Shown: positions 3,001 to 48,700, counted from the stretch's first letter. The stretch: 64,000 nt of DNA from Amoebophrya sp. A120 (GCA_905178155.1 CAJINV010000003.1:3441600-3505599), one strand, 5' to 3'. Program-made: numbers and translations. The notes: generated by a model not told the origin, from the letters alone.

Positions 3001-6000
3001 GGGTCGTGCTATCTTCTGTGCTCTGAGGGCCGTCCTTCCCGGCGGGCGGAGGAGTAGATGCAGTAGGCAGCACGGATTGATCATGATTTTCCGAAGAGCC
3101 TCCCGTTGCAAAGGTGGTGACTTCGGCGCCCTCCGCAAATCCTACCGACTTGCCCGGGGACTTCCCCTTCATGCGTTTAAACTTCCCCAATGCTCGCATG
3201 GTCGACAAGCCTCCCCCACCCAGCGTCGGCAGTTTCACCGGCGGAGCTGCCGCCGCAACGGCAACGGCAGGCGGCGCTGCCAAAGAACCTTGGTCTCCTC
3301 CTGGTCCACCTGGGACCACCGCAACTGCTTCGGCCGCCGCTCCTCCCGATGTGATCGCCGAAGAGCCCCCTGCCGACGGCGGCCCGTTTGTTATTCCGGG
3401 ACGAACCGGCACCCACAGGCGACGTTCCAGGTCCGCGACGCCGCCCGCGCTCTTTTCGCCGCGCACGCGCACCGGGCGCGTGTCGCGAAAAATCAAGTTG
3501 CGGTCGGGGCAAAACCGGTCGAACCGGCGGCGCCGCGTTCCGCTCAGCGGGAACGTGTTCATCGCCAGAACTTCCCAAAACGTGGCCTCGTCCAACGCCA
3601 AGGCCTGGTCGATTGACACGTTCGGGATGAGACCCTCCTTTAGTAAATTGTTGAACCGAATCATGCCGGTCCAGTCGTCTTTCACGCGGCGGGGGTTGGC
3701 CCAGAGGTGCGTCCGCAGCTTCACCGGATCAAACAGGGCTGTTTTCAGTGTGCACTGCAGCAGAGACGGATTCGGGTCGGGAAACGCGAGCCCCACGACG
3801 CAGTTTTTCGTGTTCGAAGACTGCTTCACGCCGCGCTCCTCGGGGTCGGTGTGCGGAATGTGCTGGATGCCGGCTTTTTGCCGCTTCTGGAGCTCGTCCT
3901 CCGCCAACTCCTCCTTCAGTTTCTCCGAGGCAAACGCCTTGTCCTGCGTTTCGGTCAGAGTCTTGATGGTGTAGCGGAGGAGGCGCTTTTGCTCGGCGGA
4001 GTCCGCACAATACGCCAAGTCCTCCTCCGCCTGTTTCAGCTTCGCCAGCCGTGGCTTTTCCCCTTTGGTCTCCAGCGCGTCGAAGCCGGGAAACTTTCCG
4101 AAGCTCTTCAGGTCGTCCTGGCTGTTCACGTAAAATTCGGGGAATGTCGGGCCCCGCGGAAACGGTTGCCGGTTGGGGTCCTTGCGCTCCTTTTCGAAGA
4201 AGATCGGAAAGGGCGGCCCCAGCTTCTCGATGCTGCAGGTCCGTGGCGACATCGGGTTGTGCTGGGAGAGAAAAGATTCCTCGAAGTGCGGCAGGATGTC
4301 CATTCCGTGCATGGTGATGCGCAAACCCCGAAGGTAGTCACGTGGGAGAAACCGGAGGAGCTTGATGTCAATGTGGCTCGGTAACTCGTGCTCCGCAACG
4401 TGGAATCGCGTCCCGCGGGCGGAACCCGTACTTTCTTCGGAAAGCACGGACCGGACTTCCTCCCGCTGCTGCTGGAATTCAAAATCCTCATTGCGTTTCT
4501 TCTTTTTCTTCCCTTTTTTCTTGCTTGTTTTCGCGGACGAGGCCGCGGGTCCTCCTTGGACCGCCTCCTCGTTTTCGTCGGAAGCTGCGGCACGCGCTGC
4601 TTCCAGTTTTGCCAGGTTCGCCGTGGTCACCTCGTTACGCTGCTGGACCATGGTCTGTTGCTGCTTCACTTTCTTTTTCGTTTCTTTCTTCCAGTCTTCG
4701 CCCCGGGTAGTTTTCCGGCGGACATCCACCGTGTCCTTCTTCTCCAGATCCTCCTTGGCCTTCCAGGAGGCAGTCGGGGCGGTGAGCGCCGCCAAGCCTC
4801 CGACGCCCTTCCGGACGGCCCGGCGCAGGACCGCGGCAGCCGCCACGCCGCCGGCACTGGAGGCGCTCACGGTGGTTTGTCGTGCGGTCTGGCGCTTGTA
4901 AGCGTCCGGGTTGGCGTCGTCCCCGAGCTTCTTCGCCTTTTTTTGCTCCTCTGCGTCCTGCTCCAGCAGGAGGTTTGGCGAATACTCGGGCATGAGCGGG
5001 ATGGGCGATGTCCAGTTGTCCGCTACGCTTTTGCGCTGCAACCAAACCGGCAGCTCCTCCGGGTTTTTCATGAAGCCAAGCGTCTCCTTCTTGGTTCGTC
5101 GCTCCTCCAGCCGTTTCTCCTCCGCTGCCTTCTCCTCTAGCTGGCGCTTGGCCTCCGCCTTTTCCGCGGCCCGCCGTTCGCCGATCTCCTTCTTGTTTCG
5201 ATCTTTGTCGGCACACTCGAGGCTGTAGTCCTGCAGGGCGTAAACGGCTTGGATGGCCTATCAAAAGGAAAAATTTCTCCTCCCCATATCAAAGCGGAAA
5301 TCTGTGATGCAGATTTGTTGTCACAAATCAGCTTTGTCATGCTACACGGGAAAAGATGCGGACTGTAGTGCTCGGTGGCGTGGGCGGTAAGCGTTGCATC
5401 TTCAGCATGATAGGAGGCAGCTGAGAGTGGGAAACAGCATGACAAATTGCCTGCAAACGAGGCCACGAGTGCAGGTCTTGACCTTCTAGCATGACAAGTC
5501 GACTTGTGACCTCAAATACAGCATCACAAGTTTCGTTTTCGATATGGGGAGGGGGGATTTTTCCTTTCGATATGGCCAGTTCCTGGAGCTCCGGAGGAAC
5601 AAACCAGCGCCAGCTGGACACCTTGATATCAAATGTAAAAATGTCTGGGTCTGGAAGATTGCCGGGTTTGTCATGCACGTTGTGCATGACTCCTCAAGTC
5701 TGTGATGCATGCCCTAGCATCACAGATTTTTAAAGGGCTTCCTGATGCCTATTCCGCATGACAAATGCTCTTTCCGTGCTGCAAAATTTGGACTCTCTTT
5801 GCTGCTCATGCAATACAGATTTTTTTAGAATCCAAAATCAGCATGACAAGTTGGATTCTTCCAGACCCAGACATTTTTACAGTTGATACTTGAGCTGCTG
5901 GAACCAGACGGCGTAATCGTGCATGCCCGTGATGAAATTCGCCGGGGGCGCCAAAGGCTGGATTTCTTCTTTCACGAAGTTCCAGTTTTTCACGCCCTTC

Positions 6001-7833
6001 AGATGACTGAGCTGCAGCGACCCCGACGCTGCCGCTGGTAGCACATCCGCACCCATGCTCGGAACGATCGGTAAGTTGGCGCTTTTTGTTCCACGACCGG
6101 GCGACCCCACAGTTGTACATTCCTCGTCGGGTGCATGGTGTTCAATGGATGCGGGACTTCCGTCTATCGCACGCAGCAGCTTCAGGTTACTTGCACCGGA
6201 TGAACTTCTACCCGAAGAGTGCGTGGCTGCTGCCATGTGCTCCAGCACCAGCTGCTTGCTGAACGCTGTTCTACTCGGCTGAAAAACCGACTGTCCCAGC
6301 ATTTTGACGACGTGCAGCGATTGCGAACGCGGCGGATTGAACACCGAGTGAATGATCTCCTCCTCGACAAACAGCGGGCCCAGGTTGTCCTTGATGATTT
6401 GCCGCTGGAGCAGCACCACCTCCGCACAAAAGTGCAGGGACCGCGGCTTCACCGGCGGGCGGCCCAGGCACGCCTTCACCATCTTCAACTGCCCCCAGAT
6501 GTCTTCCCACCGCGTCAAAACGCGCCGCGGCTGTGTCCAGTCCGTCGGGATTGCGAACCGGCGTTGGTCGTACCCGAAGTTCACCACACTACGAATTGGA
6601 TTCTTCTGCAGGTACCGTTGGAGGAACTCGAACTTGTTTTTCCCAAACAAATCCTTCATCCGGCTCTTCAGCTCCGTCGAGGAGAGATTTTCCTCCTTCG
6701 TGTAAGGGTCTTGCCCGATGAAGTCCGGCTTCTTGTTCGGGTCGTCCTGCGCCACTTCCCCGCCCGACCCGAGACTGCCCGCGCCCCCGGCGCTCCCCGG
6801 GTAGGTGCCCGCCGCCATCATGGCCTGGATGCGCTCGTGCTCCTGCTCCAGCTCGATGCGCTGACTGGCGAGCAGCCTCGTCCCGGCCACGTTGCCCAGG
6901 TTCAGGCCCTGCCGATTCAATTCCATCTGTCGGGCGTTCTCGCGTTGGGCCTTTTCGATGCTCGAAATCCCGCCCTCCTCCGCGGCGAAGTTGACGTTGT
7001 CCAGTCCGCTGTCGGAACTCTCCCCGTCCTTGCGCGCGTACGGATCTTCCTCGTCCTCAGGGCCAGCGAGCTGTTCATCCTCGTAGTCCTCCGCGAGTTC
7101 GATGGCCCGAATCCATTTCCGCCGCTCGTGCTCGATCTGCTGGACCTTTTGGAGTCCTTCGGCGTACCACTCGGCGTAGGCCTGCAGCTGCTGCTCCAGC
7201 AGCAGTTCCAACTCTTCGTAGTAGCTCGGATCGCCAAACAACGTGCTGTTCGGCGTGAGCGCGGCCTCCCGCTTTCGCTTCTCGTACTCCCGCTGCTTGG
7301 CCTGTTTGTCCATCCCGGCGAGCGTCGGATCTGTGTTGCGGCGCTTCAGCGAAGTAGACTCCCGGGGCGGGGCAGATTTGTTTTTCTTCTGCGCGGCGTC
7401 GCCCTGCAGCGTCAGGGGAGGCGCAGTGGCGGCCGCGGACGTGCCCATGTCGTACGTGTAAGGGTTCCACTCTAGCAGAGGAGTGTATTCGGCGAGACCC
7501 TGCAACCACCGGAACTCCGGGTCGTTCTGAAGGTGAAACTTGAACATGAGAGGCTCCCGTGGGGAGCTGCCCGGAGGATTAGAAGCGTTATTTTTTCGTG
7601 CATCATTATACGGCACCAATTGATGCTGCTGACTCGTCGTGCCACCTGTCGCGTGCTCCGTTTTTCGTTTGTGAACCAGGTAATTCACCTCCTCGGGCGA
7701 GGTGATTTTTGACTTTCGCTTTCTACGTTCCGCACCCCCAGCATCGCTGCCCGATTCATCGTCACCGGAGTTGTCTTCTTGCCCTCCGGGCTGACAAAGC
7801 ATATCCTCGATCGGCATGACGTTGATCTTGTTC
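1..7833 (-). CDS. Very large hypothetical protein (>2,400 aa), multi-exon, runs off the left edge; interrupted by two introners
   Basis: Exons 7833-5889, 5621-5577 and 5257-<1. Removing each TIR element plus one TSD copy gives the continuous frame YAVWFQQLK-VSSWRWFVPPELQEL-AIQAVYALQDY. The last exon appears open to the window edge (sampled translation and consistent antisense shadow ORFs), which would explain its absence from the ORF track. The acceptor TTCACAG|G at 7834 implies a further upstream exon (possible donor AC|GTAAGT near 8012), so the start is unresolved. K/E/R-rich, no recognised domain. Confidence 0.8.
5259..5572. mobile_element. Introner / MITE-like intron 1 (314 bp, about 86-bp imperfect TIR, 5-bp TSD TGGCC)
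   Basis: Left end TATCAAAAGGAAAAATTTCTCCTCCCCATATC; right end reverse complement TATCGAAAGGAAAAATCCCCCCTCCCCATATC; pairing continues to TTGTCATGCTA. TGGCC at 5254-5258 and 5573-5577. Removable in frame as a GC-AG intron 5576-5258. Confidence 0.9.
5627..5888. mobile_element. Introner / MITE-like intron 2 (262 bp, about 50-bp TIR, 5-bp TSD CTTGA)
   Basis: Left end TATCAAATGTAAAAATGTCTGGGTCTGGAAGA; right end reverse complement TATCAACTGTAAAAATGTCTGGGTCTGGAAGA. CTTGA at 5622-5626 and 5889-5893. In-frame removal (267 nt) gives at best GT..AA or TA..AG ends. Confidence 0.9.
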
Positions 7834-8622
7834 CTGTGAATGATGTTCTTACCGGCCTACTCGCCCGCGTAGTGCATTTTCCAGATACAAGTAAACTCCG
7901 GACCGAGTAATAGCTTCAGAAAATCCGAAGCCATCATGGGTTATCTTTGCCGTTGCGTCATTCTATAATGGTGCACGGATCACGAGCCGGCAAGATCAGA
8001 GTAAGTACTTACGTACACACCTGCTGCATCTGGCGCAGAAGATGCCAGATGGAAGCAAATCTGTTCCTCGACCGGAAAGTGACAAAGAAGTCACCAGGAC
8101 TCCTGATGCAACGCAACTTGACAAGCACCCTATCACATCTCTATTTAGAAGCGGGCTAAAAATATGCATGGGTGAAAGAGCTCTTGACTTCCTGCTGATG
8201 AGATGACAAAGACGTCGAATCATGAGTTTGAACGTGAGAGTATTCGTTAACCGGCATTGCACAACACAGATTCAAAACCGGACAACAGCGACGGATTTGA
8301 ACATGTACGTACGATTTTCGGGACGATGAGACAAACGAAACGATTTGTTTGAGAGACAAGCAGCACGAACTGAACGATACGTGTAGGTGTAGCTGCAACG
8401 AATGACGCTACACCGATGAGCAACAGATAGTAAACACGAGCATAATCGTGGACGTGTCTACAGACGTGGACGAATACTTAAACTGAACATGATGAATGTG
8501 ATGTAGATGCATTTTTTTCATCTAGTTGCACGAGGCGTCAGCGTCTAACTTTGACCGCCAAAACTACCGTGGCATAGTGGCCGAAGTACACACGAAGTAT
8601 CAATCTATTAGTGCTATTTTTT

Positions 8623-10629
8623 CTAGAAGTTGCGAAGGTTGGTTTTAGCAGCGTCGAAAACGTCGCCGTCTTTGATTTTCCCTGTTTGCAGCAGGTGCAA
8701 GACTTTTTGATTGTCGTCGGTTAAGGGCTTAAAAGTTGACGTATTCGCCAGGAGTCCCAGCTGAGAGGAGGCCATTCGCAGTTGCTGCGTGCGCTTCTCG
8801 CGCTGCTTCTCGTTCCAGGCCTCTTTTTCGAGATCCTTTTGTTCCCGGAGTTTTCGTTTCTCCTCCCGCTCCTTGGCGATGCGCGGTGCGCGTTTCAGCT
8901 GCCGCTTCTCATTGCGGGCTACCTTGAGCTGCTGGCGGACGATGGCCAGTTCATGAAAGGGGGCCCCCTTGTCCGTGGGCCAGGACTGCCGCTGCAGGCG
9001 CCACGGCAGCACGGGCTTGTGGTGCCAAATGGCGTTTACCTTCTTCGTGTACTCCGGCAACTCCATCTTCCCCTTCCGCCAGTACACACTCAACTCCTCT
9101 TCCAGCATCTTGTGCAAGCTGAACTTCGCCCGCGTCAAGACCGACACTCGCTGCTCGGCCGTCAGCATCTTTGCGGAAACGTACCAGCGGCCGTCTTGTA
9201 CTTCTGCGCCAGATGACCTCCTGGCCGTCTCTGGTGAAGATGTGTTGGCCACTTCTGAATGATGTAGTTGCCATCCATTTTCATTTTTCTCTCGCAGAGA
9301 GGAAACCGAAGGAGCGGAAGGCTGATGCTCTGGTGAACAAGACGATGAAAACAGTCCTGTCGCAGACCCGATCCCTGCGAGGCAGCGTCGCTGAAAAGAC
9401 ATCCCACTCTCGTGGTTTACCGTTGGACTGGATAGCGCAAGGCTCTCCCTGTTCTCGCCTCGCATTTCGCTAGCGTCCAGTTGGAAGACGAGAAACAATT
9501 CCGCAAATTCGCGGAAGGTCAGAAACCGTTCCCACGACCCAAACCGGTGGTAGACTGCTTCGTCCGCAATGCTTGTCGTCACGTTTTCGTGCCCGGCAGG
9601 CTTCCGACTCTGCTCCAGCAGCTTCAACTCCACCGCAATGCTGTCTACCGCCAGAGGCGCGGCGCTGGACGAGGACGATGCAGTGGAGGAAGTAGATGAG
9701 AAGGCTCCGCTGTGCCGTGCCTCGCAGGCGGTGTGCAATTGCTCTGCAAGCGACAGCAGCTGGTCGTTGAAATGCTCCCGCTTCTTGATCCAAATGGGGT
9801 CATTCTGCTTGTCATTATCGAGCGATTTCATGTGCACGGTTTTCGCGCATAACGACGCGGGCAGCTTCAGAGGCGAGTGGAGGGCGTCCCAGACGGCCCG
9901 GCGCGTTTCAAATGTCACGTACCCGGTACCGGAGCATTGGTAGGGGTCGTGGGAGTGCGGGAGGCATCTCACCTGCTTCAGGCCACCAAATTTCGAAAAG
10001 AACCGCCGCAACCGCTCCTGCAAGTTTTCCGGCGTCACGCCCATGGGCAAGTTGGACAACTCGATCGTATTTTCTCCATACACGTCGCGGAATTCCAGGC
10101 CCGATTTCGGTTCACTGTTGTACCAGTCAATCTGCTCACCAGTCGTCTTACTCACTTCCGGGTAGTGGTACCGTGATATCTGTTGATCATCTTGATGTTC
10201 TTGGAGGGAGGTTTGTTCACCATTCTCCTCCACTCCGCTCGCGGCTCGTCCTGATGCCCCCTCCGGAGGTCGCTGGTAAGGTATTCGCCAGTGCCACTTG
10301 AAGTTACTGGCGCCGCGCGGCGCTCGGAACCAGCCCCAAATACGGTGCTTCGGGTGTATTCGGTGGTATATGCTCTTGGCAATGAACAGCGGCCTCGAGC
10401 GACGAAATACCCCGCCTGCGGAACCGCACGAGGCGCGGCCCACTACTGCAGCTGGGGACATTCCAATTTTGCTCGCTAGCAGCAAGGACCTCGAGCAGGT
10501 CGGATCAAGCGCCTTCATCATGGGCAATAAACCGGTAGTAAGAGTAGAGCTGGACGACGTACTAGAGCTCACGTGGCAAAAGAGCGAGTCGGAGCATGCT
10601 CGTCGACAAACGTTGTGAAACGCCGACAT
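8623..10629 (-). CDS. RRM-domain RNA-binding protein, possibly mitochondrion-targeted
   Basis: Single ORF, first ATG at 10629. RNP2-like TIELSNLP and RNP1-like SGTGYVTF with RRM spacing (LQERLRRFFSKFGGLKQVRCL). Ser/Arg-rich, acid-poor N-terminus and a basic coiled-coil C-terminus. Confidence 0.75.
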   Translation of the reverse strand: MSAFHNVCRRACSDSLFCHVSSSTSSSSTLTTGLLPMMKALDPTCSRSLLLASKIGMSPAAVVGRASCGSAGGVFRRSRPLFIAKSIYHRIHPKHRIWGWFRAPRGASNFKWHWRIPYQRPPEGASGRAASGVEENGEQTSLQEHQDDQQISRYHYPEVSKTTGEQIDWYNSEPKSGLEFRDVYGENTIELSNLPMGVTPENLQERLRRFFSKFGGLKQVRCLPHSHDPYQCSGTGYVTFETRRAVWDALHSPLKLPASLCAKTVHMKSLDNDKQNDPIWIKKREHFNDQLLSLAEQLHTACEARHSGAFSSTSSTASSSSSAAPLAVDSIAVELKLLEQSRKPAGHENVTTSIADEAVYHRFGSWERFLTFREFAELFLVFQLDASEMRGENRESLALSSPTVNHESGMSFQRRCLAGIGSATGLFSSSCSPEHQPSAPSVSSLREKNENGWQLHHSEVANTSSPETARRSSGAEVQDGRWYVSAKMLTAEQRVSVLTRAKFSLHKMLEEELSVYWRKGKMELPEYTKKVNAIWHHKPVLPWRLQRQSWPTDKGAPFHELAIVRQQLKVARNEKRQLKRAPRIAKEREEKRKLREQKDLEKEAWNEKQREKRTQQLRMASSQLGLLANTSTFKPLTDDNQKVLHLLQTGKIKDGDVFDAAKTNLRNF

Positions 10630-11064
10630 GTTGCTTTTCGCTTGTCCTCTTTTTTTTTCCACGGCCACGCACTGATTTAGATTTTCTTCTCGATGAGAAG
10701 ATTAGTTTGTCATCGGGGGTTCCCGTTGCAATGCAAAATGCGGATTTCTAAGAGACAGTGCGCAGGCGGGGAACTGTCACAGGCGCCTCAAAAATGAACA
10801 TCTCGTCCAGACATCCGCTTGCGCCTGGGCATTGGTAATCATTAATTATCACACCTCCTCCGAGATTTTTGTTTCTTGTTCTACTTGGATCACATATTGT
10901 TGTTGTTTCCTTGTTATTTACTCACGCATTTTTTACTGTGCATGTACCTGTAACTGTATGTTGAAGATATGAAGAGGCAGATGGCAGAAAATGCCTACTT
11001 ACTTGCATTTTTTCGCCTACCACGAAGCACGATTAGATTTAATAGAGGAAGCGCAAACACTGGA

Positions 11065-12391: not shown

Positions 12392-13001
12392 TTTCGTTGC
12401 TCCTTGAAAAATAAGTGGACCGCGTCACTCTCAGAAAAATGAAAATGATCAACCCCACGCTCAATAACTCAATTGGGCTGCATGTCCATGCTCCATGTAT
12501 GAATTTTAGAAAAAGCTGCAAGAACCGTCGGACAGCAGCACTTTGGCCGAACCTTCGCTGTGAGCAGTAGCTGGCTCGTTGTCACCAGCACCTGCGCAGA
12601 AGATGCTCTAACACTTGCAAGAAGACCGTGCACTTCTTTTGCATGTCGTTTTGGATGTAGATGTACAGAGTCGCTTCAAATCGGATACAAGTTCCAAAGA
12701 AAAAATGTACACATTCATCATTCCAGATTAGACAAAAAACCCGTACCCTGTGCAAGATTAAACGCAGTTGACTTTGACATGTTTATCCTTAGAAAAAAAA
12801 CTTGCACGTTGTTCAACATTCAAGTACTGACTGTGACTGTAAAGGAAACAAAGGCATTGGCATGATAATATGCAGAAACAACAACTGGCGCCATGATATC
12901 AACCAAAAAAGTACCAGATTGAAAATTTTTGTTTGAAAATCTCTACCATGACTAGATATAGGTAAGAAAACCCATTATTTAATAGTATCCCGCAATAGAA
13001 G

Positions 13002-13150
13002 AAACAAAGAATAGAAACGAAAAACAAAAACAAAGAATGGAAACGAAAAACGAAAACAAAGAATGGAAACGAAAAACGAAAACAAAGAATAGAAACGAAA
13101 AACGAAAACAAAGAATGAAAACAAAAAACGGAAACAAAGAATAGAAACAA
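13002..13150. repeat. Tandem repeat, 26-bp unit AAACAAAGAATRGAAACGAAAAACRA, about 5.5 copies
   Basis: Directly visible periodicity. Confidence 0.9.
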
Positions 13151-13202
13151 GAAATAACAACAACGAAATGCAGACAAGGAAAGTGCCCAAGCTTCTAAGC
13201 GG

Positions 13203-13362
13203 CGAAGCCAGCCTCGAAACGATGAGGCCTCGAAACGCCGAAGGAAGCAGCGAAGCCTCGAAGCAGCGAAGCCTCGAAGCAGCGACGCCTCGAAGCAGCG
13301 AAGCCGCGAAGCAGCGAAACCTCGAAGCAGCGAAGCAGCGCAGCCCCGACGCAGCGAAGCCT
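13203..13362. repeat. Tandem repeat, 8-bp CGAAGC(AG/CT) subunits forming a 16-bp higher-order unit CGAAGCAGCGAAGCCT
   Basis: Directly visible periodicity; explains the spurious ORFs 12975-13391 and 13168-13377. Confidence 0.9.
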
Positions 13363-13564
13363 ACAGAGAGGCGCTGAGTGCTACTATTCATCTAGCGGAA
13401 TACTATTAAGTCTGCAAGTTACTGGACATGGGAAGCGGGATAAGGCTAGTTTGACCACTACCTACCTACAAAACAAATACACGAGAGAATCAAATCAAAT
13501 AGAATACGCGAGCTTTGGCAAAAAAAACTGAGTCAGGAGTGGCACTAGAAGCTGGTGACTCGTC

Positions 13565-16036
13565 CTAAATCAACCGGGGCGTGCTAAGGAGTAAGTTTGT
13601 CCTGCGCCCGTGCAGATCGTCCAAATAGTTCGTGAGGTATTCGTATCCGCAACCAAACTTGACCATGTTTGCACCCTGCCGCTGCACCACCACGACGGTC
13701 TTCTCTCGGCACTGCTGGCCGCTGATAACATAGTTGTTTTCCGCCGCCTTCTTGATCTGCAGCGGAAAGTCTGGGTACTGGTTAATAAATTCCTGGATCT
13801 CCTCGTCGGCGGTCAAGGCAGCTTTCCGTCCCGTCGGGCGACGTCCTCGGCTGAAACTCCGGGTGGACGAAAGTAATGTCGTGCTGCTGGCAGCACTCCT
13901 GTTTCTCCTCGGTCGGGCGCTCCCACTGCGATGACGTTCGCGCTGGTGTGCGGGAGTTTCCGCGAGCGCTTGGTGCGAGCCGCGATCGTCCACTGCGCGC
14001 GAGGTGGTACCAGCACGCGAGGACCCGCTGCTCGCGTTGTAGTTTGCAGCGTCGGACAATTGGTTTACCGCCCGTTCTGCCTCAAGCTTCCGCAATCGAG
14101 CTTGTAGCTGCGCCACCTCCGCGGCCAACGCCTGCAGTTTTTGCGCATTCTCTTCGTCGACCGACTTTTCCTCGTCCACTTCGTTTGCAGCCTTCGGAAC
14201 AAGAATCTTATTCGAGTCAGAAGTTGTAGATGCAGCAGTGTTCTCCTGCACGGCACTTCCTTTGCCTTTCGCAGATGCTGCTTCACTTCCACCGAATGCT
14301 ACAGCAGCTCGGGTGACTGGCGAAGACGCAGATTGCAAAAGCGTGCGTGGCGCGGGACGTGGAGTTGACAAATCTAGGGGCTTGTTGCTGATACCCGCAT
14401 GACTAGCCATGTTCTCTCCGTCCGAGCTTGTCCCGAGTGCTGCGGCCAACTTCGAACCGCCAGGCGGATTCCACGATGTCGACTGCGGTCTAGCAGATGA
14501 AGCTGGTTGATGATAAAGATCACTCTCCCGAACAGCACCGGCACCCGGGTTTACGTTCACTTCCTCCATCTGCCTCGGAGTATTTTTGCTGTTCACGTAG
14601 GCACGGCTACTCTTCAACACGAACGCAGGGCTGACACCGATTGCTGGTGACATCAAAGTTTCCGGCATCTTCCACGGACTGGGACTTCGCGCCCACGATG
14701 TCGTACTGTTCATCAACCAGGAGGACGGGGGAGTGCTTGCACTTGTCAGGAACTGTTGCGATGTTGCGAGAGCTCGGCCGTGCTTCTGCCGTGGCGTTTG
14801 CAGGACTGCTTCCTGCGCAGGAGAGGTAAAGGTATTGACGCCCGAGTAGAGAACTGCGGTCTTCATTTTAAGTTGTTCTTCTTCTTTAGCATCATCCTTA
14901 TTGCTCGATGACATCACAGCATTATATCCCGGAGCTCCACCGGTCAGTTCAGGCTCGTCCTCGTCCTGTCCACCGTCTAGTTGGATTTTGTCCTCACCCT
15001 CTTCCATTTTCATCGCACCCCCCTGCAGCTGTTCACCTTCCGCCTGGACAGCCGGCTGCCGCAGTCTATTTTGACTGGAACTTGCTGCTAGGTTAAGCGG
15101 TTTGACGTTCATCTTGGACTGACGAACGCGCGTCTCGTACCGTGCGCGGTCCCGGGGAGACATTTGCGACACATCCAGCGAGGCGGGTAGTTCCTGCGAG
15201 TTGTAGTGCTGGATCGACGAGGATACCGAACTTAATGTCTGGCTCTGGCGGGCGAGAAACCTTTCCTTCGCTTGCTTGTATGTCGTCATCGGAGCAGCTG
15301 CTGTGCTTGGTGCAGTGTTGGCACTAGATGGTAGAAATTGCCGAGTTCGAGAAGAAAACGGCGTCGACAAGTTCGTGATTGGTGTGAGCCCTGGAGTCGC
15401 AGCCTTTTGTGACTCTGCTGAATGATTCTCCGACCTGGCTGGTGAGGAGGGTGGTTTCACTGCAACACCAGCGGGAGTAGTTCCAGTCTGTTGATTACCC
15501 GCCTGGACCTGCACCGGTGGTCGTGGTCTTGGCGCTGGTACCGGGGAGTGTGCTATCACATTTAAGCCGGGTATTCTGAATCGGCGAAGTACTGGCTGTT
15601 CGGTGGGAATCCAGGTTGCAAGGAGTGGACAACTCCCATCAGGCGTGCCTGGAACCTGACAGATAGCATCGAATGTTTGAAAGTAGGAGACTGTCCAAGA
15701 TTCCCGAGATTTTGACGGATCGTAAAAATGCGCTCGCAGCGAGATGATGATGAACAAACCTAACCACGAACAGCAGGAGAGAATTACAAGGAGATGCTTT
15801 ACCTGATGAATTTTCCCGATGCAGTTCTCGAATCCTTCGACTGCAGTACCGTGATCCAGAACTCTCGGTGACGAGGGTGAAGCCGATCGGGGCGATGCCG
15901 GGAGCGACGTGACGCTTGCATTGACCAACAGTGTTGGACCCAGGTCGGGATTTGGCATCATAGACAACCGGATCGGTGAACGTGTCTCCGGTCGGGTCCG
16001 CAAGTCGTGAGTGCGCTGTGGCGTCGTCAGCGCCAT
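13565..16036 (-). CDS. Low-complexity/coiled-coil protein with C-terminal GAS2/GAR-like microtubule-binding domain
   Basis: 823-aa ORF with ATG. The C-terminal segment IKKAAENNYVISG...KTVVVVQRQGANMVKFGCGYEYLTNYL resembles the GAR signature (Y.fG...VRVGGGW..L..YL). Possible in-frame intron 15802-15656. Confidence 0.6.
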   Translation of the reverse strand: MALTTPQRTHDLRTRPETRSPIRLSMMPNPDLGPTLLVNASVTSLPASPRSASPSSPRVLDHGTAVEGFENCIGKIHQVKHLLVILSCCSWLGLFIIISLRAHFYDPSKSRESWTVSYFQTFDAICQVPGTPDGSCPLLATWIPTEQPVLRRFRIPGLNVIAHSPVPAPRPRPPVQVQAGNQQTGTTPAGVAVKPPSSPARSENHSAESQKAATPGLTPITNLSTPFSSRTRQFLPSSANTAPSTAAAPMTTYKQAKERFLARQSQTLSSVSSSIQHYNSQELPASLDVSQMSPRDRARYETRVRQSKMNVKPLNLAASSSQNRLRQPAVQAEGEQLQGGAMKMEEGEDKIQLDGGQDEDEPELTGGAPGYNAVMSSSNKDDAKEEEQLKMKTAVLYSGVNTFTSPAQEAVLQTPRQKHGRALATSQQFLTSASTPPSSWLMNSTTSWARSPSPWKMPETLMSPAIGVSPAFVLKSSRAYVNSKNTPRQMEEVNVNPGAGAVRESDLYHQPASSARPQSTSWNPPGGSKLAAALGTSSDGENMASHAGISNKPLDLSTPRPAPRTLLQSASSPVTRAAVAFGGSEAASAKGKGSAVQENTAASTTSDSNKILVPKAANEVDEEKSVDEENAQKLQALAAEVAQLQARLRKLEAERAVNQLSDAANYNASSGSSRAGTTSRAVDDRGSHQALAETPAHQRERHRSGSARPRRNRSAASSTTLLSSTRSFSRGRRPTGRKAALTADEEIQEFINQYPDFPLQIKKAAENNYVISGQQCREKTVVVVQRQGANMVKFGCGYEYLTNYLDDLHGRRTNLLLSTPRLI

Positions 16037-39700: not shown

Positions 39701-42700
39701 GTAGAGGTCGCGACTGCTGATGTACTGCCGACTGACGTAGATCGGAGGCTGGGGTCGGAGCCGGATGCGGCGCATGAACAGGTTCGCGGGGTTGCTGTTG
39801 ATGTGCGGGAACGCGGTCACGCCGGATATTGTCACCATTGCCCGGCACAGCGTGACCGGGGGCAGCGGCATCTGGAACGCGAGCGGGTGGTTGGCCAGGT
39901 TTTGCTTCTTGTTCTGCGGCGATTTTCCCGTGGGCGGATTGCTGGCCGGCGACTTGTCGCCCGCGGCGTCCTCATTGTTAGCTTCCTCCAGCGCATCGTT
40001 TGACTCGATGATGGCGAAGCTGTGCGTTTGCAGCTCCTTGAACAGCTTCGCATCGTTGTGCAAGTAGTTGTAGCCCTGCACAACCTCGAAGTGCAGCCGA
40101 CCGGTGACTTCTTCCACACGGTCGGAGAAAAATTTCACGAAGATCTTCACCTTCGACTGGGGCGGAATCACCCACCTGGTTTGCGTGGTCGAGCACTGTG
40201 CCAAGTCCAGAAGCTCCTCTTCTGACTTTGGTGGCGCCGCAGGCTCGATTTCTCCGTTCTCCCCAGCAGCGGCATCTTCTGTCGGCGCAGCAGGAGCTTC
40301 TTCGACATTTTGGTTTTCGTCCCCCGCAGTCCCGTCCTCGAGCGCAGTGCCTGCTTCCTCTACCGCTTCCAGCTTCTGGTCCTCGGGCGGCGCTTCCACA
40401 ACGAGCGGCTCCGGCTGCCCGTCGAGGGGGGTGAGAATCGAAAAATTGTGCTTCGACAGCTTGTACGCCTCATCGTGGTCGAAATCGCGACCGATCTGCG
40501 GCGAATACACAACTTGCCGCATCGAGGGCTGCGGCAGCCTCGGGTCCTCGGGCACGCGTGGCGCGGGCATCATGTCCTCGGGCTCCGGCAGCGCAGCCCG
40601 ACTCTCCTTGTCGTACGGAAGCGGGTACACCGAAACCAGGTGGAAGTCCTGAAATTCCATGTTTGCCAACGCGGAATGCTGGCTGTGCGCAGGCGAGCTG
40701 CCCTTGCTGGATTCCGCCCCTTGGGATTTGTTCCTGGCCTTCGCGCCCGCTTTCGCTGCGTGCCTCTTCTGCTGCTCGAGCGCCAGCTTCTGGAACTCCG
40801 CGTGCTTCACGGCGTTCACTGGCTGGATCGTGTCCGCAATCAGTTGCCTGTAGAAGTCGAAGCACTCGCGATTCGCGGGCACATTGATCTTCTTCAAAAT
40901 TTCCAGCTCCGCCTTGCCGGCTTCCAACCGCTGTTGCAGTACCGCCAGATCGTCTTCGTCCCCGTGATCTTCATCTGCCGAGCTGTCCTGCACCTTGGTT
41001 TCCAGCGCCGTCATTTCGGCCTGCAAACTCTCCGCGTCCTTCTCGATCTCGGCCTGTCGCAAGTCTAAAAACGCCTGCAGATCGGCCTCAAACACCTCAA
41101 TGCGCTTCGCCTCCTTCGCTTCCTCGTCCAGCTCCTCGTCGGCGACCTTGTTTTCATCCGCTGCACCGCCCGCAACATCTCCTGGGTTGTTGTCTGCTTC
41201 GTTTCCCGACATGCCTCCCGTGTCCTGCTCGGGAGAGCGGTGGCTCGGTTCCATCAGGAAGAACCGAATCCGCTCGTCGAGAAGGAACAGCACCTGCAAA
41301 ACGCTCTCCGGCGTGAGGTACTTGATGGACGCCTCGAAGGAGTTCAAGATAAAACCGGTGTTGAAGTCGCACAGCGCGAGCCGCTTCTTGACGATCTGCG
41401 CAACCACCTCCGGGTCCAGGTCGTAGGTCGGGAACGCCGCCGCGGCCGCGTCGTCGGCTGGAGGTTTGATGTCGTGCGACAAGAGGATGCTCTTGTGCGC
41501 GATCTTCGCCTCGTACTCCGCTTTCGCCGCGGGATCCGTCTCCCACAGCTGCTCCCGCTCCGTCATCGTGGCCCGCACCTTGTCGACGAACTCCTCGTCC
41601 AGTAGGCCCTTCGCGCTGCCTGAAACCGCCCAGTCCACGCACTCGTCGATGGAGAGAAAGCCCCGCTGGCTGACCGCGTGAATCTGGTTGGCCCACTTCG
41701 TGCGCCCGGAGCGCTGCGGCCCGTGGATCACCACGTTCTCGCGGAACTTTTGCGGGACCCGGTTCGGGAACTTGTCCTCCTCCAGACCCAGATCCAGCAT
41801 CGCCGCCACCTCGTAGTCGCGCTCCGTCTTGATCACGGGCTTCTGGCACATCAGCGGCTTGATGTTCTTCGGGTCCCACACAGGATCCCGCACGAACCGC
41901 CCGTCGTGATCCTCGTTGGCTTCCTCCCACAGCCACAGGTAGTAGTCGTTCTGCTCCTCCATGGTGGGAATTTCGTCCGGGAACCACTCCCACGGGAGCT
42001 TGTCCGGCTCCTCCTCGAGTTCTTCCGGGTCCAAATTCTCTTCCTTCAAAAACAGCCACTCGCTCTGCCAGAATTCCTGCACCTTCGTCAGGAACTGCTT
42101 CTGCAGCTCCACGATGGCGATCTCCTTGCCGCCCGTCGTGTTCATCGCGTTCGTGTCGTTGTCCTGCTTCTTCTGCAGCAGCTCGTCGTCGCGCTCCTGC
42201 TTTCGGGCCAATCGGACGTCCTGGTGCTCTTTTCGCTTCTGCTCCTGGTTCCACGTGTCGATCACGTCGGGCCACGTCACCGACATGTCGGACCGCAGCG
42301 GAAACTCGGAGTACTTGTAGAGCGGGTCGTGCTCGTAGATCTCCAGCATCTGCTCCTCGAGCCGGTACTGCTCGTCAAAGTCGGCGCTGTAGACCGTGAT
42401 GGGGTAGTCGGTGGGGTTTTCCAGATAGATGCCGCGCAAACTTCGCTCGTAGTACGGCAGAACCGGGTCGAGCTTGATTTCTTTTTGGTCCACGTTCAAA
42501 CTCAACATGTCGCCCTGCCCGTTGCACGTCAGCATCTTCTTGTGCGGATTGTCCTTCACCTTCAAACCTGTTTATTTGGTACTTGGCCTATTTTTATCTT
42601 GAAAAAGCAACGAGTCATGAGACATGAGAGCGCGTACGAAACGAGGACCAAGAGGCCGAGGCAAACAAGAGGTAGTAAAGTAGGCAACTATGGGTATGCA

Positions 42701-45700
42701 GCTTACAACTAGAGCTCGCCGCATAGATTGATGCATCGTCTCCGCGGCAATTTCAGAAATAATAATAAAATGAAAACCGAAGAGTGTACCGAGCTTCTGC
42801 TTGTAGGAATTTGCAGAGTTTGGTGTGAAGGCAATTTCCACCCACTGCACCTCGTCCGGGTGCAGCACCCCGTGGTCGGGTGTGACGGTGAAGACCGTAT
42901 CCCACTTGGGCAACGGCTTGCCGCCCGACGCTTTGGGCGTCTTGTAGCTCCACTCGATTGGTACGGGCTTTTTGTTCTTAATCGAGATGGTGATGATCTT
43001 CTTCTGCCCGACGAGCACGCGGCCGAAGTCGATGAACTCGTTGCTCACCACGATCTCTGGCAGTACGAAGAACGCTTTCAAGTGCACTTCGTACTGCGGT
43101 CCGTTCTTGACCGGAATCTTCCACGAAAAGGAAACCGGCCCCTCGCCCTGCACTAGCGGGTCGTTGGCGTCCTTACCACCCTTCGCAACAGCGGTGGCCG
43201 CATCCTCCTCCGGGCTGGCGGAATACGCCTCGCACGTCAGGGTGATCTTGTCGAGTGCTGGGATCGTTTTGGCGTTCGCCGGCTCCACGAGAAAGCCGTA
43301 GGCTTCCAGCTCCTTCTTCTTGATCTCAAACTGCACGGTGTCGTGGTACACGTTATGCAGGATGATGTTCTTCTTTTTGCTATGCCCCAGAATAATGTAG
43401 CCGAAGTCGCACACGTAGCTCGCGGCGACGACTCCGGCCTCCTTCTTCTTGCCTTTTTTCCCCTTGTTTTTGCTGCCGCTCGCCTGCGGTGCCGCGCGCT
43501 GCTGCAGGAAGAGTTCCTCTTCCTGCTGCAACAGGATCTGACACAGGTGCTGCCGGTCGACCTCGCTCTCCAGCTTCAGCATCAGCTGCTTCCGCTCGTT
43601 CGCGACCGCGACTGCGGTTCCGCTGCGCGGCGTGCCGTTGCTGACTTCCTGCTTCGAGGATTTCTTGGCTGAGCCCTTGGAACTGGCGGACGGCGGGCGG
43701 TTGCTCTCGCTGTTGGACTCCCCCGATCCGGACTTGTCGGGCGCGCCGGAGCTGCTGGAGCTGCCCTTCTTCGACCGGCTCTTCTTGTCTCCCGGCACCA
43801 AGGCCGTGACACCGTCGACGATTTCGTCTTGCTGCTTCTGCACCACGGCCCGCGCGGCCTCCAACTTCATCAGATGCGTCTCCCGCTCCGCCCGCTCCAG
43901 TTCCAGCACCAGGTTCGGGAAGATCCCCGTGCCGTTTATCTTGAACTTGATGGGCTCGTAGTGCGCCACCGCGATCAGCACGTGCTCCTCGACGTAGTCC
44001 GGGATGCCCGGGCAGAATCGGATTTTCAAAAACGTTTTGTCTTCCGGGTGGATCAGCCCCGTCTGCGGGAAAATGTCGACGCAGAGCGGTCGCTTCAACG
44101 TGGTCATGTCGACGCTGTAGTAGAACGGCACCTGGCCCATGTTCCGGATGCACAGATCCCGTTCCACGGTTTGCGTGAACAAGATATCGCCGACCGACAT
44201 GCCGTCCTGCACGCCGCCGATTTTGTCCAGCCGATACTCCACGTCACTGGCGGTCCCGCCGACCGCCACGGTGTAGTCCGGGCCGCCGTCGCAAAGGCAC
44301 ACGAAGTGCGTCTCGACTTTCCGGTTCCCGAGGCCGAAATACGTGAACTGCACGTCCACGCTGCTGCCGCTCTCGATGCGGCCCGCGATCGGCAGGACGT
44401 CGAACACCTGGCCGAGCGGAACGTCGACCATTTTGCCGTCCATGTCGCAGCGGATGCTGTCCTCGTCGACGAGTGTGAACTCGAAGTTGACCGGCAGCGG
44501 GTACGGATTGGAGACGCGGATGCTCTGCACCTTGCTGGTCATGTTCAGAATGGCGCCGAAGTCCACCGCGAGGGCGTCGAACACCAAGTTCGGGAACACC
44601 ACCTCGCCGATCAAGTCGATGCTGTCCTTTTGCGGGTGGTCCGCGTAGGTGATGGCCAGCTTTTGCTTGTTCACGTCGCACACCTTGTCCACTTGGTAGT
44701 TCGGGTCGAAGGACACCGTGCAGGTGTGCTTCTGCCCCGGCGTCAAGGTCAGGGCCGTTTTGTCGATGTGGAAGGGGTAGGGGCACTTGATTTGGAACTT
44801 CACGTCCAGGGGACTCACGTTGGTGAACTGCAGCGGCTGCGTGAGCGGGGCGAACTCCCTGTAGCCGTACTTGGTCTCCCACTCGAACTTGTACTCGAGC
44901 GACTGCTGGCTCAACTGCAGCAGGGGCGCGATGAACTCGCCCTGCAGTTCGCACTGCAGGACCGGCTGGCCCTTGCGGTCGTTGGCGCCGACGAATTCCG
45001 TGCACGTGAGCACTTCGGACACCGACCCGGGACGCGCGGACATCGCGGTGAAGGTGAACCGGTACATGGACTTCCCGTCTAGCGTCACCGTGTCCGGCGT
45101 CACGCTGAACACCGGGGTGAGCTCCTGGATTTTTAGTTCCATGGCGCGCTTGCTCTTCCCGGACTTTTCCTCCTCCTCGCTGGGCTTCTTTGCGAGAAAC
45201 TTTTGCAGAGCCTCCAGTTTCTCGCTGCTCCAAACCAGTCTCCTGGCTTTCTTTCCCCGGTTCTCCACGTAGATCTCGCGGGTGTGCGTCTGTGTGGCGT
45301 ACACGGTTCCGAAATCGAGCTTCGACAGGTCTTCCGGGCTGGTGATCGGCGTCCCCGTGCCCTTCGCTTTCACGGCCACCATGATGTCGTTGGATTCGTG
45401 CACGACCAGGTGCAGCGTATCGGACACCGCCTGTTTCTCGTCGCACACTAATGTCAAGTGCAAGTAGGCCACCTCGTTGGGCGCGAGGTGCAGCTTTTTG
45501 GGCTTCACGCTCCACAGGCTGTTCTTGCTCTTTAAGAAGCACCTCACGGCAGCGTCGATCACGCTGTTGTTCGTGACTTTCAGGGTCTTCGTGACCGGCT
45601 GCAGGCACTTCGTGTTGCCCCAGTCTAGCTTGTTGGTCTCGACCTCGACCCGCGGGCCGATCGGGATGGCTGTCAGCTGGAAGGGATACGGAACCGGCTG

Positions 45701-48700
45701 GCCCAAAATCTTCACGTACATCGGGATGCTCAGCGGCTGGCCCCCAGCTGCGGAGGATAAAATTGAAATAAAATTGATAAGTATTTTTTGCATGACATCA
45801 TGACAGAAAACTACGAAGAAAGCGACACTACCCCGTAGGATGGTTTTGTGGTTCATCTTATGTCAATGACATCTCTGCCACATAATTCATCGAGAAGACC
45901 ACGAGCAAATACCAGTTTCCTTCGGGATTTTTTTCGCAATGAGCGTGATCGTGATCACGTGCGAAGACGCAGGGGGAACGTTGCCCTGCATCTGGTCCGC
46001 TTCGAACTCCGCAATCTGTTTGCTCTGCTCGTCTTGCGGCAGAATTTGGAACTTTGCGGGAAGGGAAGACGTGTTGTGCATGACCAGGCACTGGCAAAAC
46101 GCGTACCGGATGAAAACTTCCCCGAAGGAAATAGCCTCGTACGGCTCAAACACCACCGTCGGGACAGCGCACCTTAGGTTGGTCATTCAATTGACTTGAA
46201 AAAATGCATCTCGGCATGTAAGTAAGCAAAGCACAGTCACTTATTGACAACGAACTTCAGATGCACATGGAAGCAAATAAAGAAGGAATGGTAAGAGACA
46301 CGAAACGGATTGCAAAAAACTACTAGTTCTTCTACTTCGGCGATTACAAAAAATTGGTACTTCGCAGTGATCGGGACGCTACCCAGCTCCTGCCCGACTC
46401 CATCGAGATCCACTACCAAGGCAAGATCATATGCCTTCTGCGGATTGGCCTGAGCACTGATGAAGTCGATCTGTTTTTTGGAGAAGTGATTTAGAATTTT
46501 TGGTGTGTTCAGCATCAGCAGTCACTGTCTTCACTACCACGGTTGCATTGATTACGCTCTTCTACTTCGATCAGCTATGCATGTTTATGTCTATCACCGA
46601 GAAGATGAGATCTCCTACCTGTATTTTCTGGGAGCAGTTTGGCAAGAGCACGCCCTTGCTAGGGATTACGTCAAACTCCTTCTGCAAGAATCTGCCGTCC
46701 CCCGGTATTCTCAAGGCATACCGCATGGTGACTTCGCTGTCGTTGGAGAGCGTGATGGTCTTGCAGTTCAGGAAACCGAACGACACGGTACCGAAATTTA
46801 TCCGGTCCATGTCGAAGTGGAAGGTCGGACAGACGGAGTTACCCTTGAACGAAATCGGGATCACGCACGCGGCCTTGTTGTTCGAACTCAGTTCCCAGTT
46901 AAAAGTTTCGTGGAACTCCCCGAGAATGTTCGGGCAGAAGTCGATCTGCAGCGTTTCTTGCCCGTCGACCTCCAACCGCCCGGAAGCAGGCGTGAACGAA
47001 AACTTGCTTCCGAACGGAGACGTGTTCGGAATCTGATGTAGTTTCGGAAAAATCAAATAAAAATATGATAATCAGATAACGACCAGGTGCGGGTCGGAGT
47101 GGGAGTGGGTTGGAAAAGGTATATGGAGTTTTAGCTATCAAGAGCAGGGAGGATCGAAAATGGTGCGCAGTCGGCGCTGTATGCTTGTACCGCTGTCCAT
47201 ACCCCGTTGACCTAGGCATACTGCTCGTGAAGGATCAAACTCAAGGTCGCCGAACGCATACGCAATCGAATAAACACGACCTATCATACCAGTTCGTAGT
47301 TGACCGCGATGTCGCCCTGATTGACAATGTCGACCTCGTATCGGTGCATACTTTCGACAAATATGTCGCCGACGTCCATCTCGTCGTAGGAGAAGGCCGC
47401 CTTGGGGCCAATGCCGTGCCCGGTCAGCTTCACCGGAATTCGCTCCTGCTGTCCCACGATGCTGCAGTACGCGAGACAGTGGTAGTGCAGCGCGGACTTC
47501 GGCGAAAACGAAATGGTCACCGTCAGCTTGCTCTTGGCCCATATTCTGCCGGAAAGGGGCTCAATCCCGAAAATTGTGTCGTAGAAGTACATCGGGTCCT
47601 CCAGAACGGCTTTCGCGATATTGGCGTACTTCCGCTTCAACGCGGCCAACTGGGCGGCGCCCCGCTTCTCCGGTATCCTGAGTAAAAACGTCCCCATACC
47701 AGAGTCAAGATGGGGATTTTGCAACACAAACCTTGAAGTTTTGGGAGCCCCGCATGAAAAACTGCAGGCTGTAGTGTAGTGCAGTTTAGAAAGGGAAGTC
47801 GCATTACAAATCCATATGCTTATCCTGGTTACAGAATTACACGTTCCAAAACACGATCGGAAATGCCTATCATGGGGATACGCATTACAAATGCTCGCGT
47901 GCTCGCAGATCTGCATGACAACTCTGGGGTGGGGATGTTTTTACTCAGGATATCCGGCCGGTTGTCGTCGTCCGATTCCTCGCCGTCAGCCTCCTGAAGT
48001 ACGGGTGGAGGTGGTAAAAAAGGATTTTTGCCGATTATTCGATGCGGGACCTACACGAACTAGTATGGCGCTAGTATGCGCTGTGCTCGGTCTTTGTATT
48101 TTGTTTCAAGATTTCACTTGGCGTGCAACGCGCTGCACGTTAGGAGAAATGCAACATGACGAAGTAATTATCAGTACGTGATGCGGCAACTCTAACGCCA
48201 TTTGTTCTACGAACAACTGTTCCTCGGTTTCCTCCTCCTTCAGCTGCACACCCAGCTTCAATTTCTGCTGGATCTCCTCCTCGACGTTGCCGAAGGCCCG
48301 CCATGAAAAGTCCACCGGGTGATCGCTGTTGTTGATGATGTCTACCGTGGCCTGGGACATCAGGGCAATGTAGGTGTCGTGCAGCAGCACGTTCCTGGTT
48401 TCAAACTGAATATCCAGGTTGCACCCGCGCCCCCTCAGCTTCGTGCACGCCTCCACCGGCGCTGAGTCGCCGTAGCAAAGGACCAAATCCCTCTCGTAGT
48501 CCGTGTCGCTGCGGTCGGGCCTGAGAAAAAGGAAATAATTGCAAAAAAACTAAACGCAGTTCTGCAGGCAAAGAAGTATTCAGTTGAGCGTGCGCTACGC
48601 TAGCTGCGCTCCTGCGCATAGATTCACTTACGTACACTACACGCCAGATGTTGATGAGATGCACAGACATGTTGACAGTGAAGAAGTTAGTAGGGCACGA

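What the first reader, a model, noticed from the sequence alone, without database searches (positions are those of the whole stretch)
5254..47957. Three exon-inserted TIR elements share one exact end signature, TATC-N4-G(G/T)-AAAAA, plus a 5-bp TSD
Seen: elements 5259-5572, 5627-5888 and 47674-47952 differ internally and in most of their TIRs, yet all six ends read TATC AAAA GG AAAAA / TATC GAAA GG AAAAA / TATC AAAT GT AAAAA / TATC AACT GT AAAAA / TATC CTGA GT AAAAA (twice). Each has a different 5-bp duplication (TGGCC, CTTGA, TCCGG) and similar size (262-314 bp). In each case removing the element plus one duplicate restores the host frame. Known: inverted-repeat/direct-repeat introners have been reported in Amoebophrya, so the class is not new. 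Inference: divergent subfamilies are served by one transposase and/or one excision machinery reading this spaced motif. TA termini with a 5-bp TSD do not match the DNA transposon superfamilies I know (Transib has 5-bp TSDs but CAC ends).
Basis: partly seen in the sequence, partly recalled or inferred. Interest (0 to 1): 0.82.

Follow-up and report, generated by a model that had tools for sequence, protein, structure and literature searches.

The report
Known Amoebophrya introners, hidden shared repeat
Three small hairpin-ended mobile elements sit inside genes, and two are shown to be cut out of the RNA exactly; they match the already published transposon-like introns of the marine parasite Amoebophrya A120, and a shared internal 8-base repeat likely marks binding sites of one still unidentified transposase.

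Summary
Observation confirmed: three TIR elements with distinct 5-bp duplications carry the signature at all six ends (0.06 expected by chance). RNA-type contigs remove E1 and E2 exactly with one duplicate; removing E3 restores a HYDIN frame. The class is published. Farhat 2021 describes A120 introner ends as TAT + 7 variable bases + at least 3 A, with 5-bp direct repeats. Gozashti 2025 lists an A120 family as '5-bp TSD, TA/TA termini'. The 'exact' signature is overstated: in 413 related elements only 271 of 826 ends and 8 of 33 families carry it; only TAT and A11-13 are near-invariant. This is a better sign of one shared transposase. TA termini point to IS3EU/GingerRoot integrase-like transposons, but those make 6-bp duplications; no transposase was found. 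Both orientations occur in exons. Duplication bias modestly favours a cut one base before and four after the element, which suggests a relaxed spliceosome. Verdict: already known class with useful new detail.

The parts
5259..5572 (.). Element E1, 314 bp, 52-nt TIR; non-canonical intron of a minus-strand gene
   Evidence: removed in RNA-type contigs (skip 319); closest relative in fetched loci 94% identical over full length
5254..5258 (+). E1 5-bp duplication, left copy TGGCC (right copy 5573-5577)
5574..5622 (-). 49-nt mini-exon between E1 and E2 (limits given for the inferred 1+4 register; position ambiguous within the duplications)
   Evidence: retained in spliced contigs of X3, X4, X5
5627..5888 (.). 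Element E2, 262 bp, 32-nt TIR; member of the largest family (163 of 413)
   Evidence: skip 267 in RNA-type contigs
5622..5626 (+). E2 5-bp duplication, left copy CTTGA (right copy 5889-5893)
47674..47952 (.). Element E3, 279 bp, 32-nt TIR, in a HYDIN exon; splicing inferred from frame and homology, not shown with RNA
   Evidence: folds at z = -6.97 against shuffles; closest relative 88.5%
47669..47673 (+). E3 5-bp duplication, left copy TCCGG (right copy 47953-47957)
5303..5342 (+). E1 left subterminal pair of TGT[ACG]ATGC (5303-5310, 5335-5342), 32 bp apart
5489..5528 (-). E1 right subterminal pair (5521-5528, 5489-5496), 32 bp apart; third copy 5437-5444
5669..5708 (+). E2 left subterminal pair (5669-5676, 5701-5708), 32 bp apart
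5810..5848 (-). E2 right subterminal pair (5841-5848 exact, 5810-5817 one mismatch), 31 bp apart; further copies 5756-5763, 5717-5724
47882..47920 (-). E3 right subterminal pair (47913-47920, 47882-47889), 31 bp apart; third copy 47801-47808
2..7856 (-). Host gene of E1 and E2: open frame of 2423 codons after splicing, running off the window start; no Pfam family
   Evidence: covered by RNA-type contigs
47284..49492 (-). Part of a HYDIN gene around E3, with an inferred GT-AG intron at 47994-48177 just upstream of E3
   Evidence: Pfam HYDIN Ig domains; homologues annotated HYDIN; alignment

Best explanation
The three elements are short inverted-repeat inserts with 5-bp duplications inside coding exons; two are shown to be removed exactly from RNA, and they are likely non-autonomous DNA transposons (the published Amoebophrya A120-type introners) that are likely moved by one unidentified transposase and likely removed by a relaxed spliceosome. 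Mechanism, step by step. (1) Insertion, inferred: a DDE transposase cuts the target with a 5-nt stagger and little sequence preference (172 different TSDs in 196 elements). It likely reads a two-part tip (TAT at 1-3, AAA at 11-13, about one helical turn apart) and subterminal TGT[ACG]ATGC sites paired 31-33 bp (about three turns) apart. The best guess for its class is integrase-like, IS3EU/GingerRoot-type. (2) Removal, shown for E1 and E2: the element plus exactly 5 nt leaves the RNA, so the protein is unchanged. (3) Register, inferred: the cut likely falls one base before and four bases after the element, so the invariant T-A-T stands at intron positions +2 to +4 like GU(A/G)A/U of an ordinary donor, and the T-rich inner face of the other end lies 15-19 nt before the acceptor. 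Because both ends are the same, either orientation can be spliced.
For: Exact RNA joins in 3 of 4 runs laid, one sample; X9 did not cover the gene. X3 also skips an intron that reads GT-AG, so it is spliced RNA. DNA-type run X1 holds all E1/E2 junction flanks with 0 differences and summed depth up to 780,182 on the E2 end against about 26 on flanks (not a copy number). 410 unique relatives in 815 kb of another assembly, 0 in one shuffle. TSD length tested without presupposing it: 149 of 152 TATC-start TIR pairs have a longest repeat of 5; 296 of 414 TAT[CG] pairs have a perfect 5-mer, 0 a 6-mer. Precise removal leaves at least 300 nt open on both sides in 116 of 345 elements, against 25 and 23 for removals off by 5 nt. 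Both orientations in exons: E2 family 33:19, E3 7:7, E1 8:4. End-to-end mismatch is 0-3% at positions 1-3 and 11-13 but 22-54% at 4-8. The 1+4 register is the only one of six with excess of both GT donors (40 vs 30.3 of 112, p=0.028; 91 vs 69.1 of 255, p=0.0016) and AG acceptors (15 vs 7.3, p=0.006; 29 vs 17.3, p=0.0045). Literature match.
Against: No transposase was found: none in 199 long ORFs of the fetched loci, in 13 ORFs inside 3 of the 8 longer elements or in 13 window ORFs, and no multi-kb element with matching ends. Farhat 2021 found no transposase in A120 and argued against general transposase-mediated mobilisation. The IS3EU/GingerRoot TSD is 6 bp, not 5. The register signal is modest, from ten tests per set; set B also shows an AG excess for the 4+1 register (84 vs 69.1, p=0.02), and cDNA cannot place a cut inside a duplication. 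Only 11 of 112 exonic elements can be read GT-AG or GC-AG in any register. U1 snRNA was not detected in A120. E3 splicing was not tested with RNA. The statistics come from a related assembly, not the window's own genome, which is not held.
Confidence: 0.62

Rival explanations
1. Same elements and same removal from RNA, but mobilised by a hAT5-type transposase (hAT group with 5-bp TSDs; hAT transposases bind subterminal repeats through BED fingers).
For: hAT5 is defined by 5-bp TSDs (PMC12730594 passage). Subterminal repeats are typical of hAT elements (Hermes paper PMC10368747, search listing only). One A120 family (fam135) has a Dfam hAT5/hAT6 terminus hit.
Against: TIRs here are 30-50 nt or longer; hAT TIRs are usually short (recalled). 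hAT5 is placed among animal hAT lineages. The A120 family manually annotated with TA/TA ends and a 5-bp TSD has integrase-like, not hAT, homology.
Confidence: 0.15
2. Removal is not spliceosomal: the terminal hairpin is cut by a structure-guided endonuclease and religated, as proposed for euglenid nonconventional introns.
For: Each element folds into a long hairpin joining its ends. About 90% of exonic elements have no GT/GC-AG register. U1 was not detected in A120. Euglenid precedent (PMC11282704 passage).
Against: No excess of G-U over A-C mismatches in sense-strand TIRs (106 vs 96, p=0.53; 216 vs 210, p=0.81), so no sign that RNA pairing is selected. Positions 4-8 of the stem are often mismatched. 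Strand-asymmetric AG|G bias at the 1+4 register resembles spliceosomal proto-splice sites. U2, U4, U5, U6 and most spliceosomal proteins are present in A120.
Confidence: 0.15
3. The subterminal repeat and spaced tip motif are binding sites of a host splicing or chromatin factor, or inherited relics of one ancestor, and the elements spread by an RNA route (reverse splicing) rather than by a transposase.
For: No transposase known in A120 or found here. Farhat favours a copy-paste spread.
Against: Fixed 5-bp TSD with free sequence is the mark of a staggered DNA cut. The motif lies on both strands, facing inward from both ends (921 vs 398), with helical-phase spacing kept in families of otherwise unalignable sequence, which fits duplex DNA binding. 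Both orientations occur in exons, whereas reverse splicing would give sense only.
Confidence: 0.07
4. The elements are excised from DNA (empty sites or programmed elimination), and the 'spliced' contigs are DNA.
For: Runs X3-X5 are only guessed to be RNA and come from a different sample than X1.
Against: X3 also lacks a GT-AG intron and has no cover over 8.6-12.4 kb, while X1 covers it evenly. Farhat's introns were RNA-seq supported.
Confidence: 0.01

Closest known systems
Introner elements (IEs) of Amoebophrya sp. A120 (Farhat et al. 2021, PMC7789003; seen: abstract, sections 10, 11, 12, 16, passages, supplementary figure legends, no figures)
   Same: Non-canonical introns with terminal inverted repeats; ends TAT + 7 variable nt + at least 3 A; 3-5-nt direct repeats (5 bp in Fig. 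S19 legend); A120 non-canonical introns average 240 nt; many families; genes in one-strand clusters.
   Different: Farhat reports no subterminal repeat in the text I could read, no fixed register, and no superfamily; it argues against a transposase.
A120 introner families of Gozashti et al. 2025 (PMC12130899; seen: passages and all 58 A120 rows of supplementary file 8)
   Same: Most are classed 'TIR DNA, unknown'. Sizes and TIRs match by description only: fam9 278 bp/TIR 30 (like E3), fam5 317 bp (like E1), fam12 252-260 bp (like E2). fam38: '5-bp TSD, TA/TA Termini'.
   Different: fam38 is about 810 bp with Copia-integrase-like homology; E1-E3 are non-coding. No sequence comparison was possible, so family assignment is not tested.
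IS3EU/GingerRoot superfamily (PMC10045372, PMC6839031, PMC12730594; passages)
   Same: TA..TA termini (TAYGG in fungal IS3EU; 67 of 826 ends here start TATGG), TIRs over 30 bp, no target sequence specificity, integrase-like DDE enzyme (fits the fam38 homology).
   Different: TSD usually 6 bp; here 5 bp (0 of 414 pairs with 6). No transposase in hand. No intron behaviour reported in the passages read.
hAT5 and Ginger2/TDD-4/5, Transib (5-bp TSD groups)
   Same: 5-bp TSD (Transib from search listing).
Euglenid nonconventional introns (PMC11282704, passage)
   Same: Non-canonical junctions, TIRs joining the ends, TSD-like repeats, MITE origin proposed.
   Different: Other lineage and end motifs; here a fixed 5-bp TSD and a weak AG|G bias.

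Membership tests
Amoebophrya A120-type introner elements | IR at both intron ends starting TAT + 7 nt + at least 3 A | tested here: met
   6 of 6 window ends; 716 of 826 ends in related elements
Amoebophrya A120-type introner elements | 3-5-nt direct repeat at the exon/intron boundaries | tested here: met
   5-bp in all three
Amoebophrya A120-type introner elements | Removed from mRNA at non-GT-AG ends | tested here: met
   E1, E2 joined exactly; E2 and E3 have no GT/GC-AG register, E1 has one GC-AG register; E3 not tested with RNA
Amoebophrya A120-type introner elements | Repeated, in families | tested here: met
   Families of 40, 163 and 65 members in related loci; very high summed depth in X1
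Amoebophrya A120-type introner elements | Host is Amoebophrya A120 | tested here: inconclusive
   Inferred from motif match, one-strand gene cluster and dinoflagellate HYDIN homologues; earlier unchecked scan notes on the same genome name A120; no call names the window's organism
MITE / non-autonomous TIR DNA transposon | Short, non-coding, TIRs, fixed-length TSD of variable sequence | tested here: met
MITE / non-autonomous TIR DNA transposon | Autonomous partner or orthologous empty site | tested here: inconclusive
   None in 815 kb searched; own genome not held; HYDIN homologue proteins are colinear across the E3 site but no orthologous DNA was compared
IS3EU/GingerRoot | TA..TA termini | tested here: met
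   All detected elements by construction; TAT at 98-100% in the less constrained scan
IS3EU/GingerRoot | 6-bp TSD | tested here: not met
   0 of 414 pairs with a 6-mer, 296 with a perfect 5-mer
IS3EU/GingerRoot | Integrase-like DDE transposase in the IS3EU/GingerRoot clade | not testable with these tools
   No autonomous copy obtained
hAT5 | 5-bp TSD | tested here: met
hAT5 | hAT transposase; hAT5 terminal consensus | not testable with these tools
Ginger2/TDD | TGTNR termini | tested here: not met
   Ends are TAT
Canonical U2 spliceosomal intron | GT/GC..AG ends | tested here: not met
   Possible in 11 of 112 exonic elements and 1 of 3 in the window

The most novel reading that the evidence does not exclude
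All TAT-ended introner families of this lineage are the non-autonomous offspring of one undescribed IS3EU/GingerRoot-like transposon with a 5-bp stagger, whose transposase binds TGT[ACG]ATGC pairs three helical turns apart, and whose symmetric tip doubles as an orientation-independent splice signal (N|TAT at +2 to +4, cut 1 before and 4 after) read by a U1-less spliceosome. The motif pair gives a direct probe for the missing enzyme.
Probability: 0.3. Interest if true: 0.68.

Novelty: already known. Interest (0 to 1): 0.33.

Why it matters
The elements, their end motif and their 5-bp repeats are published, so the finding as written adds little. Two questions about these introns remain open in the papers read: what moves them, and how an apparently U1-less spliceosome removes tens of thousands of introns without GT-AG. 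The cross-family subterminal repeat with fixed 31-33-bp spacing argues for one DNA-binding transposase, against the 2021 paper's view, and gives a search pattern and a binding probe. The register bias gives a concrete prediction for lariat sequencing.

Tried and rejected
Own genome: not held, so no genome-wide count; the contigs behind the fetched loci are not searchable by handle. Viral contigs: 0 matches for two patterns. Prokaryotic genomes: 0 matches. Transposase search: negative; this covers under 1 Mb and is weak evidence. The longer elements (457-1384 bp) have unique interiors without a Pfam hit above noise in the 3 scanned; one (L021) looks like neighbouring short elements joined by chance. 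RNA-level selection on the hairpin: not seen. Strong orientation bias: not seen (the window's own reference elements count trivially as 'same'). Target-site motif: none beyond the weak sense-strand G bias. Raw RNA reads X12 and X13 did not cover the host gene; their hits come from other copies of the E2 family, which says nothing on expression here. X9 did not cover the gene. Rfam: 0 hits in the window. PMC6004678: no passage for hAT5 or 5-bp. PMC12005148 (passages): Amoebophrya ex Karlodinium has mainly GT/AG introns. Earlier-findings look-ups returned nothing; 48 returned only other genomes.
Full report
Observation. The pattern TATC-N4-G[GT]-AAAAA matches six times in 64 kb, only at these ends, against 0.06 expected. 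They are three of the four top-ranked inverted repeats of the window. All long frames lie on the minus strand. Removing E1 and E2, each with one duplicate, gives 2423 open codons; partial removals do not. E3 lies in HYDIN: spliced, the reading aligns with eight homologues on both sides; unspliced it stops within the element.

Removal from RNA. Single contigs of runs X3, X4 and X5 (one sample, RNA by guess) join 5252>5572 (319 nt) and 5621>5889 (267 nt) with no other letters; X9 did not cover the gene. X3 also skips a 147-nt intron that reads GT-AG and lacks cover over several kb that DNA-type run X1 covers evenly, so it behaves as spliced RNA. X1 contains the element junctions with no differences, so the assembly is sound. 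E2 and E3 have no GT-AG or GC-AG register; E1 has one GC-AG register.

What is in print. Their Fig. S19 legend says 'Direct repeats of 5 bp'. They found no transposase in A120 and no U1 snRNA. Gozashti et al. 2025 (PMC12130899; passages and all 58 A120 rows of supplementary file 8) class most families as TIR DNA of unknown superfamily and annotate fam38 as 'Ginger; 5-bp TSD, TA/TA Termini' with Copia-integrase-like homology. That the window is A120 is my inference; unchecked notes of this scan on the same genome say so too.

Related copies. The window's genome is not held. Best relatives are 94%, 94% and 88.5% identical to E1, E2, E3; no locus overlaps the window. A family-agnostic scan (TA[TC] ends, exact 5-mer, 14 of 20 complementary) gave 442 hits, 413 unique with the window's three, in 33 clusters; one shuffle gave 0. 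Family proportions are biased by the search pattern. TSD length, tested separately, is 5: 149 of 152; 296 of 414 perfect 5-mers, 51 with 4 of 5, none of 6.

The signature is not exact. It holds at 271 of 826 ends, in 8 of 33 family consensuses and at both ends of 89 of 413 elements; TAT-N7-AAA holds at 716 ends and TAT[CG] at 783. End-to-end mismatch is 0-3% at positions 1-3 and 11-13 and 22-54% at 4-8: a two-part tip.

TGT[ACG]ATGC has 13 of its 15 window matches inside the three elements. It occurs in 403 of 413 elements (shuffled 10), in 296 of 306 that the search pattern could not have selected, and in 223 of 231 with no strict signature at either end; pairs 31-33 bp apart (one mismatch allowed) occur in 350, 243 and 181 of these sets (shuffled 1.4 or fewer). 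It mostly faces inward from each end (921 vs 398). Symmetric placement on both strands and spacing near three helical turns fit a protein binding duplex DNA, as subterminal repeats of transposons do (inference). Searches listed no paper that joins this motif or 'subterminal' with Amoebophrya introners; figures I could not see may show it.

Exons and orientation. Of 405 short elements, 345 had enough flank. Precise removal leaves at least 300 nt open on both sides in 116, against 25 and 23 for removals off by 5 nt, and is the best of the three in 183. Among 112 confident exonic cases both orientations occur (33:19, 7:7, 8:4). Only 11 allow GT/GC-AG. G-U and A-C mismatches in sense TIRs are equal (106:96; 216:210), so no RNA-level selection on pairing is seen.

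Register. Earlier unchecked notes proposed a cut one base before and four after the element. In my sets this is the only register with excess of both GT and AG (112 elements: 40 vs 30.3, 15 vs 7.3; 255 elements, strand from locus majority or AT skew: 91 vs 69.1, 29 vs 17.3; AGG 14 vs 4.2), though the 4+1 register shows an AG excess in the larger set (84 vs 69.1). The sets overlap and ten tests were made in each, so this is modest support. Under it E1 reads AT..CC, E2 GT..AA, E3 AT..GG, and the invariant TAT sits at +2 to +4.

Which transposase. None was found in 199 long ORFs, 13 ORFs within 3 of 8 longer elements or the window, and no multi-kb element was seen. By termini the nearest superfamily is IS3EU/GingerRoot (TA..TA; TAYGG in fungi), which fits the integrase-like fam38, but its TSD is 6 bp, so I do not file the elements there. 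hAT5 matches the TSD; Ginger2/TDD matches the TSD but not the ends.

Verdict. Real, spliced, and a known class with a known end motif. The additions are RNA support for two elements, the cross-family subterminal repeat, a candidate superfamily and modest support for a fixed register. Interest 0.33.

Noticed in passing
window 12979-13409: A second repeated element of another kind: 15-nt TIR (TTAATAGTAT.CCGC) around two tandem arrays (13- and 16-nt units), no 5-bp TSD (TTAA at both tips). An X3 contig skips 12982-13422, which reads GT..AT on the minus strand, downstream of the ORF ending at 13565. X1 depth there is over 100-fold above flanks; no copy in the fetched loci.
   Followed up: partly
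L024:2446-3417: A 972-bp E2-family element with a unique interior overlaps the end of an ORF carrying RNA polymerase II Rpb1 domains 5-6, so it likely interrupts an essential gene.
   Followed up: no
L038:765-1461, L048:8759-9965, L056:1547-2930, L047:3096-3834, L024:7348-7843: Longer elements keep family ends and a 5-bp TSD but carry unique interiors, like captured host DNA (Pack-type); no Pfam hit in those scanned.
   Followed up: partly
window 1-64000: Only 3 such elements in 64 kb (0.05 per kb) against 0.5 per kb in the fetched loci, which were chosen around elements; all long ORFs are on one strand; a HYDIN gene spans about 35.4-49.5 kb.
   Followed up: no
run X12 on window 5625-5888: 126-140 raw RNA reads carry one end of an E2-family element with a different flank, i.e. 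a transcript of another locus that retains or ends in an element.
   Followed up: no
   Followed up: partly
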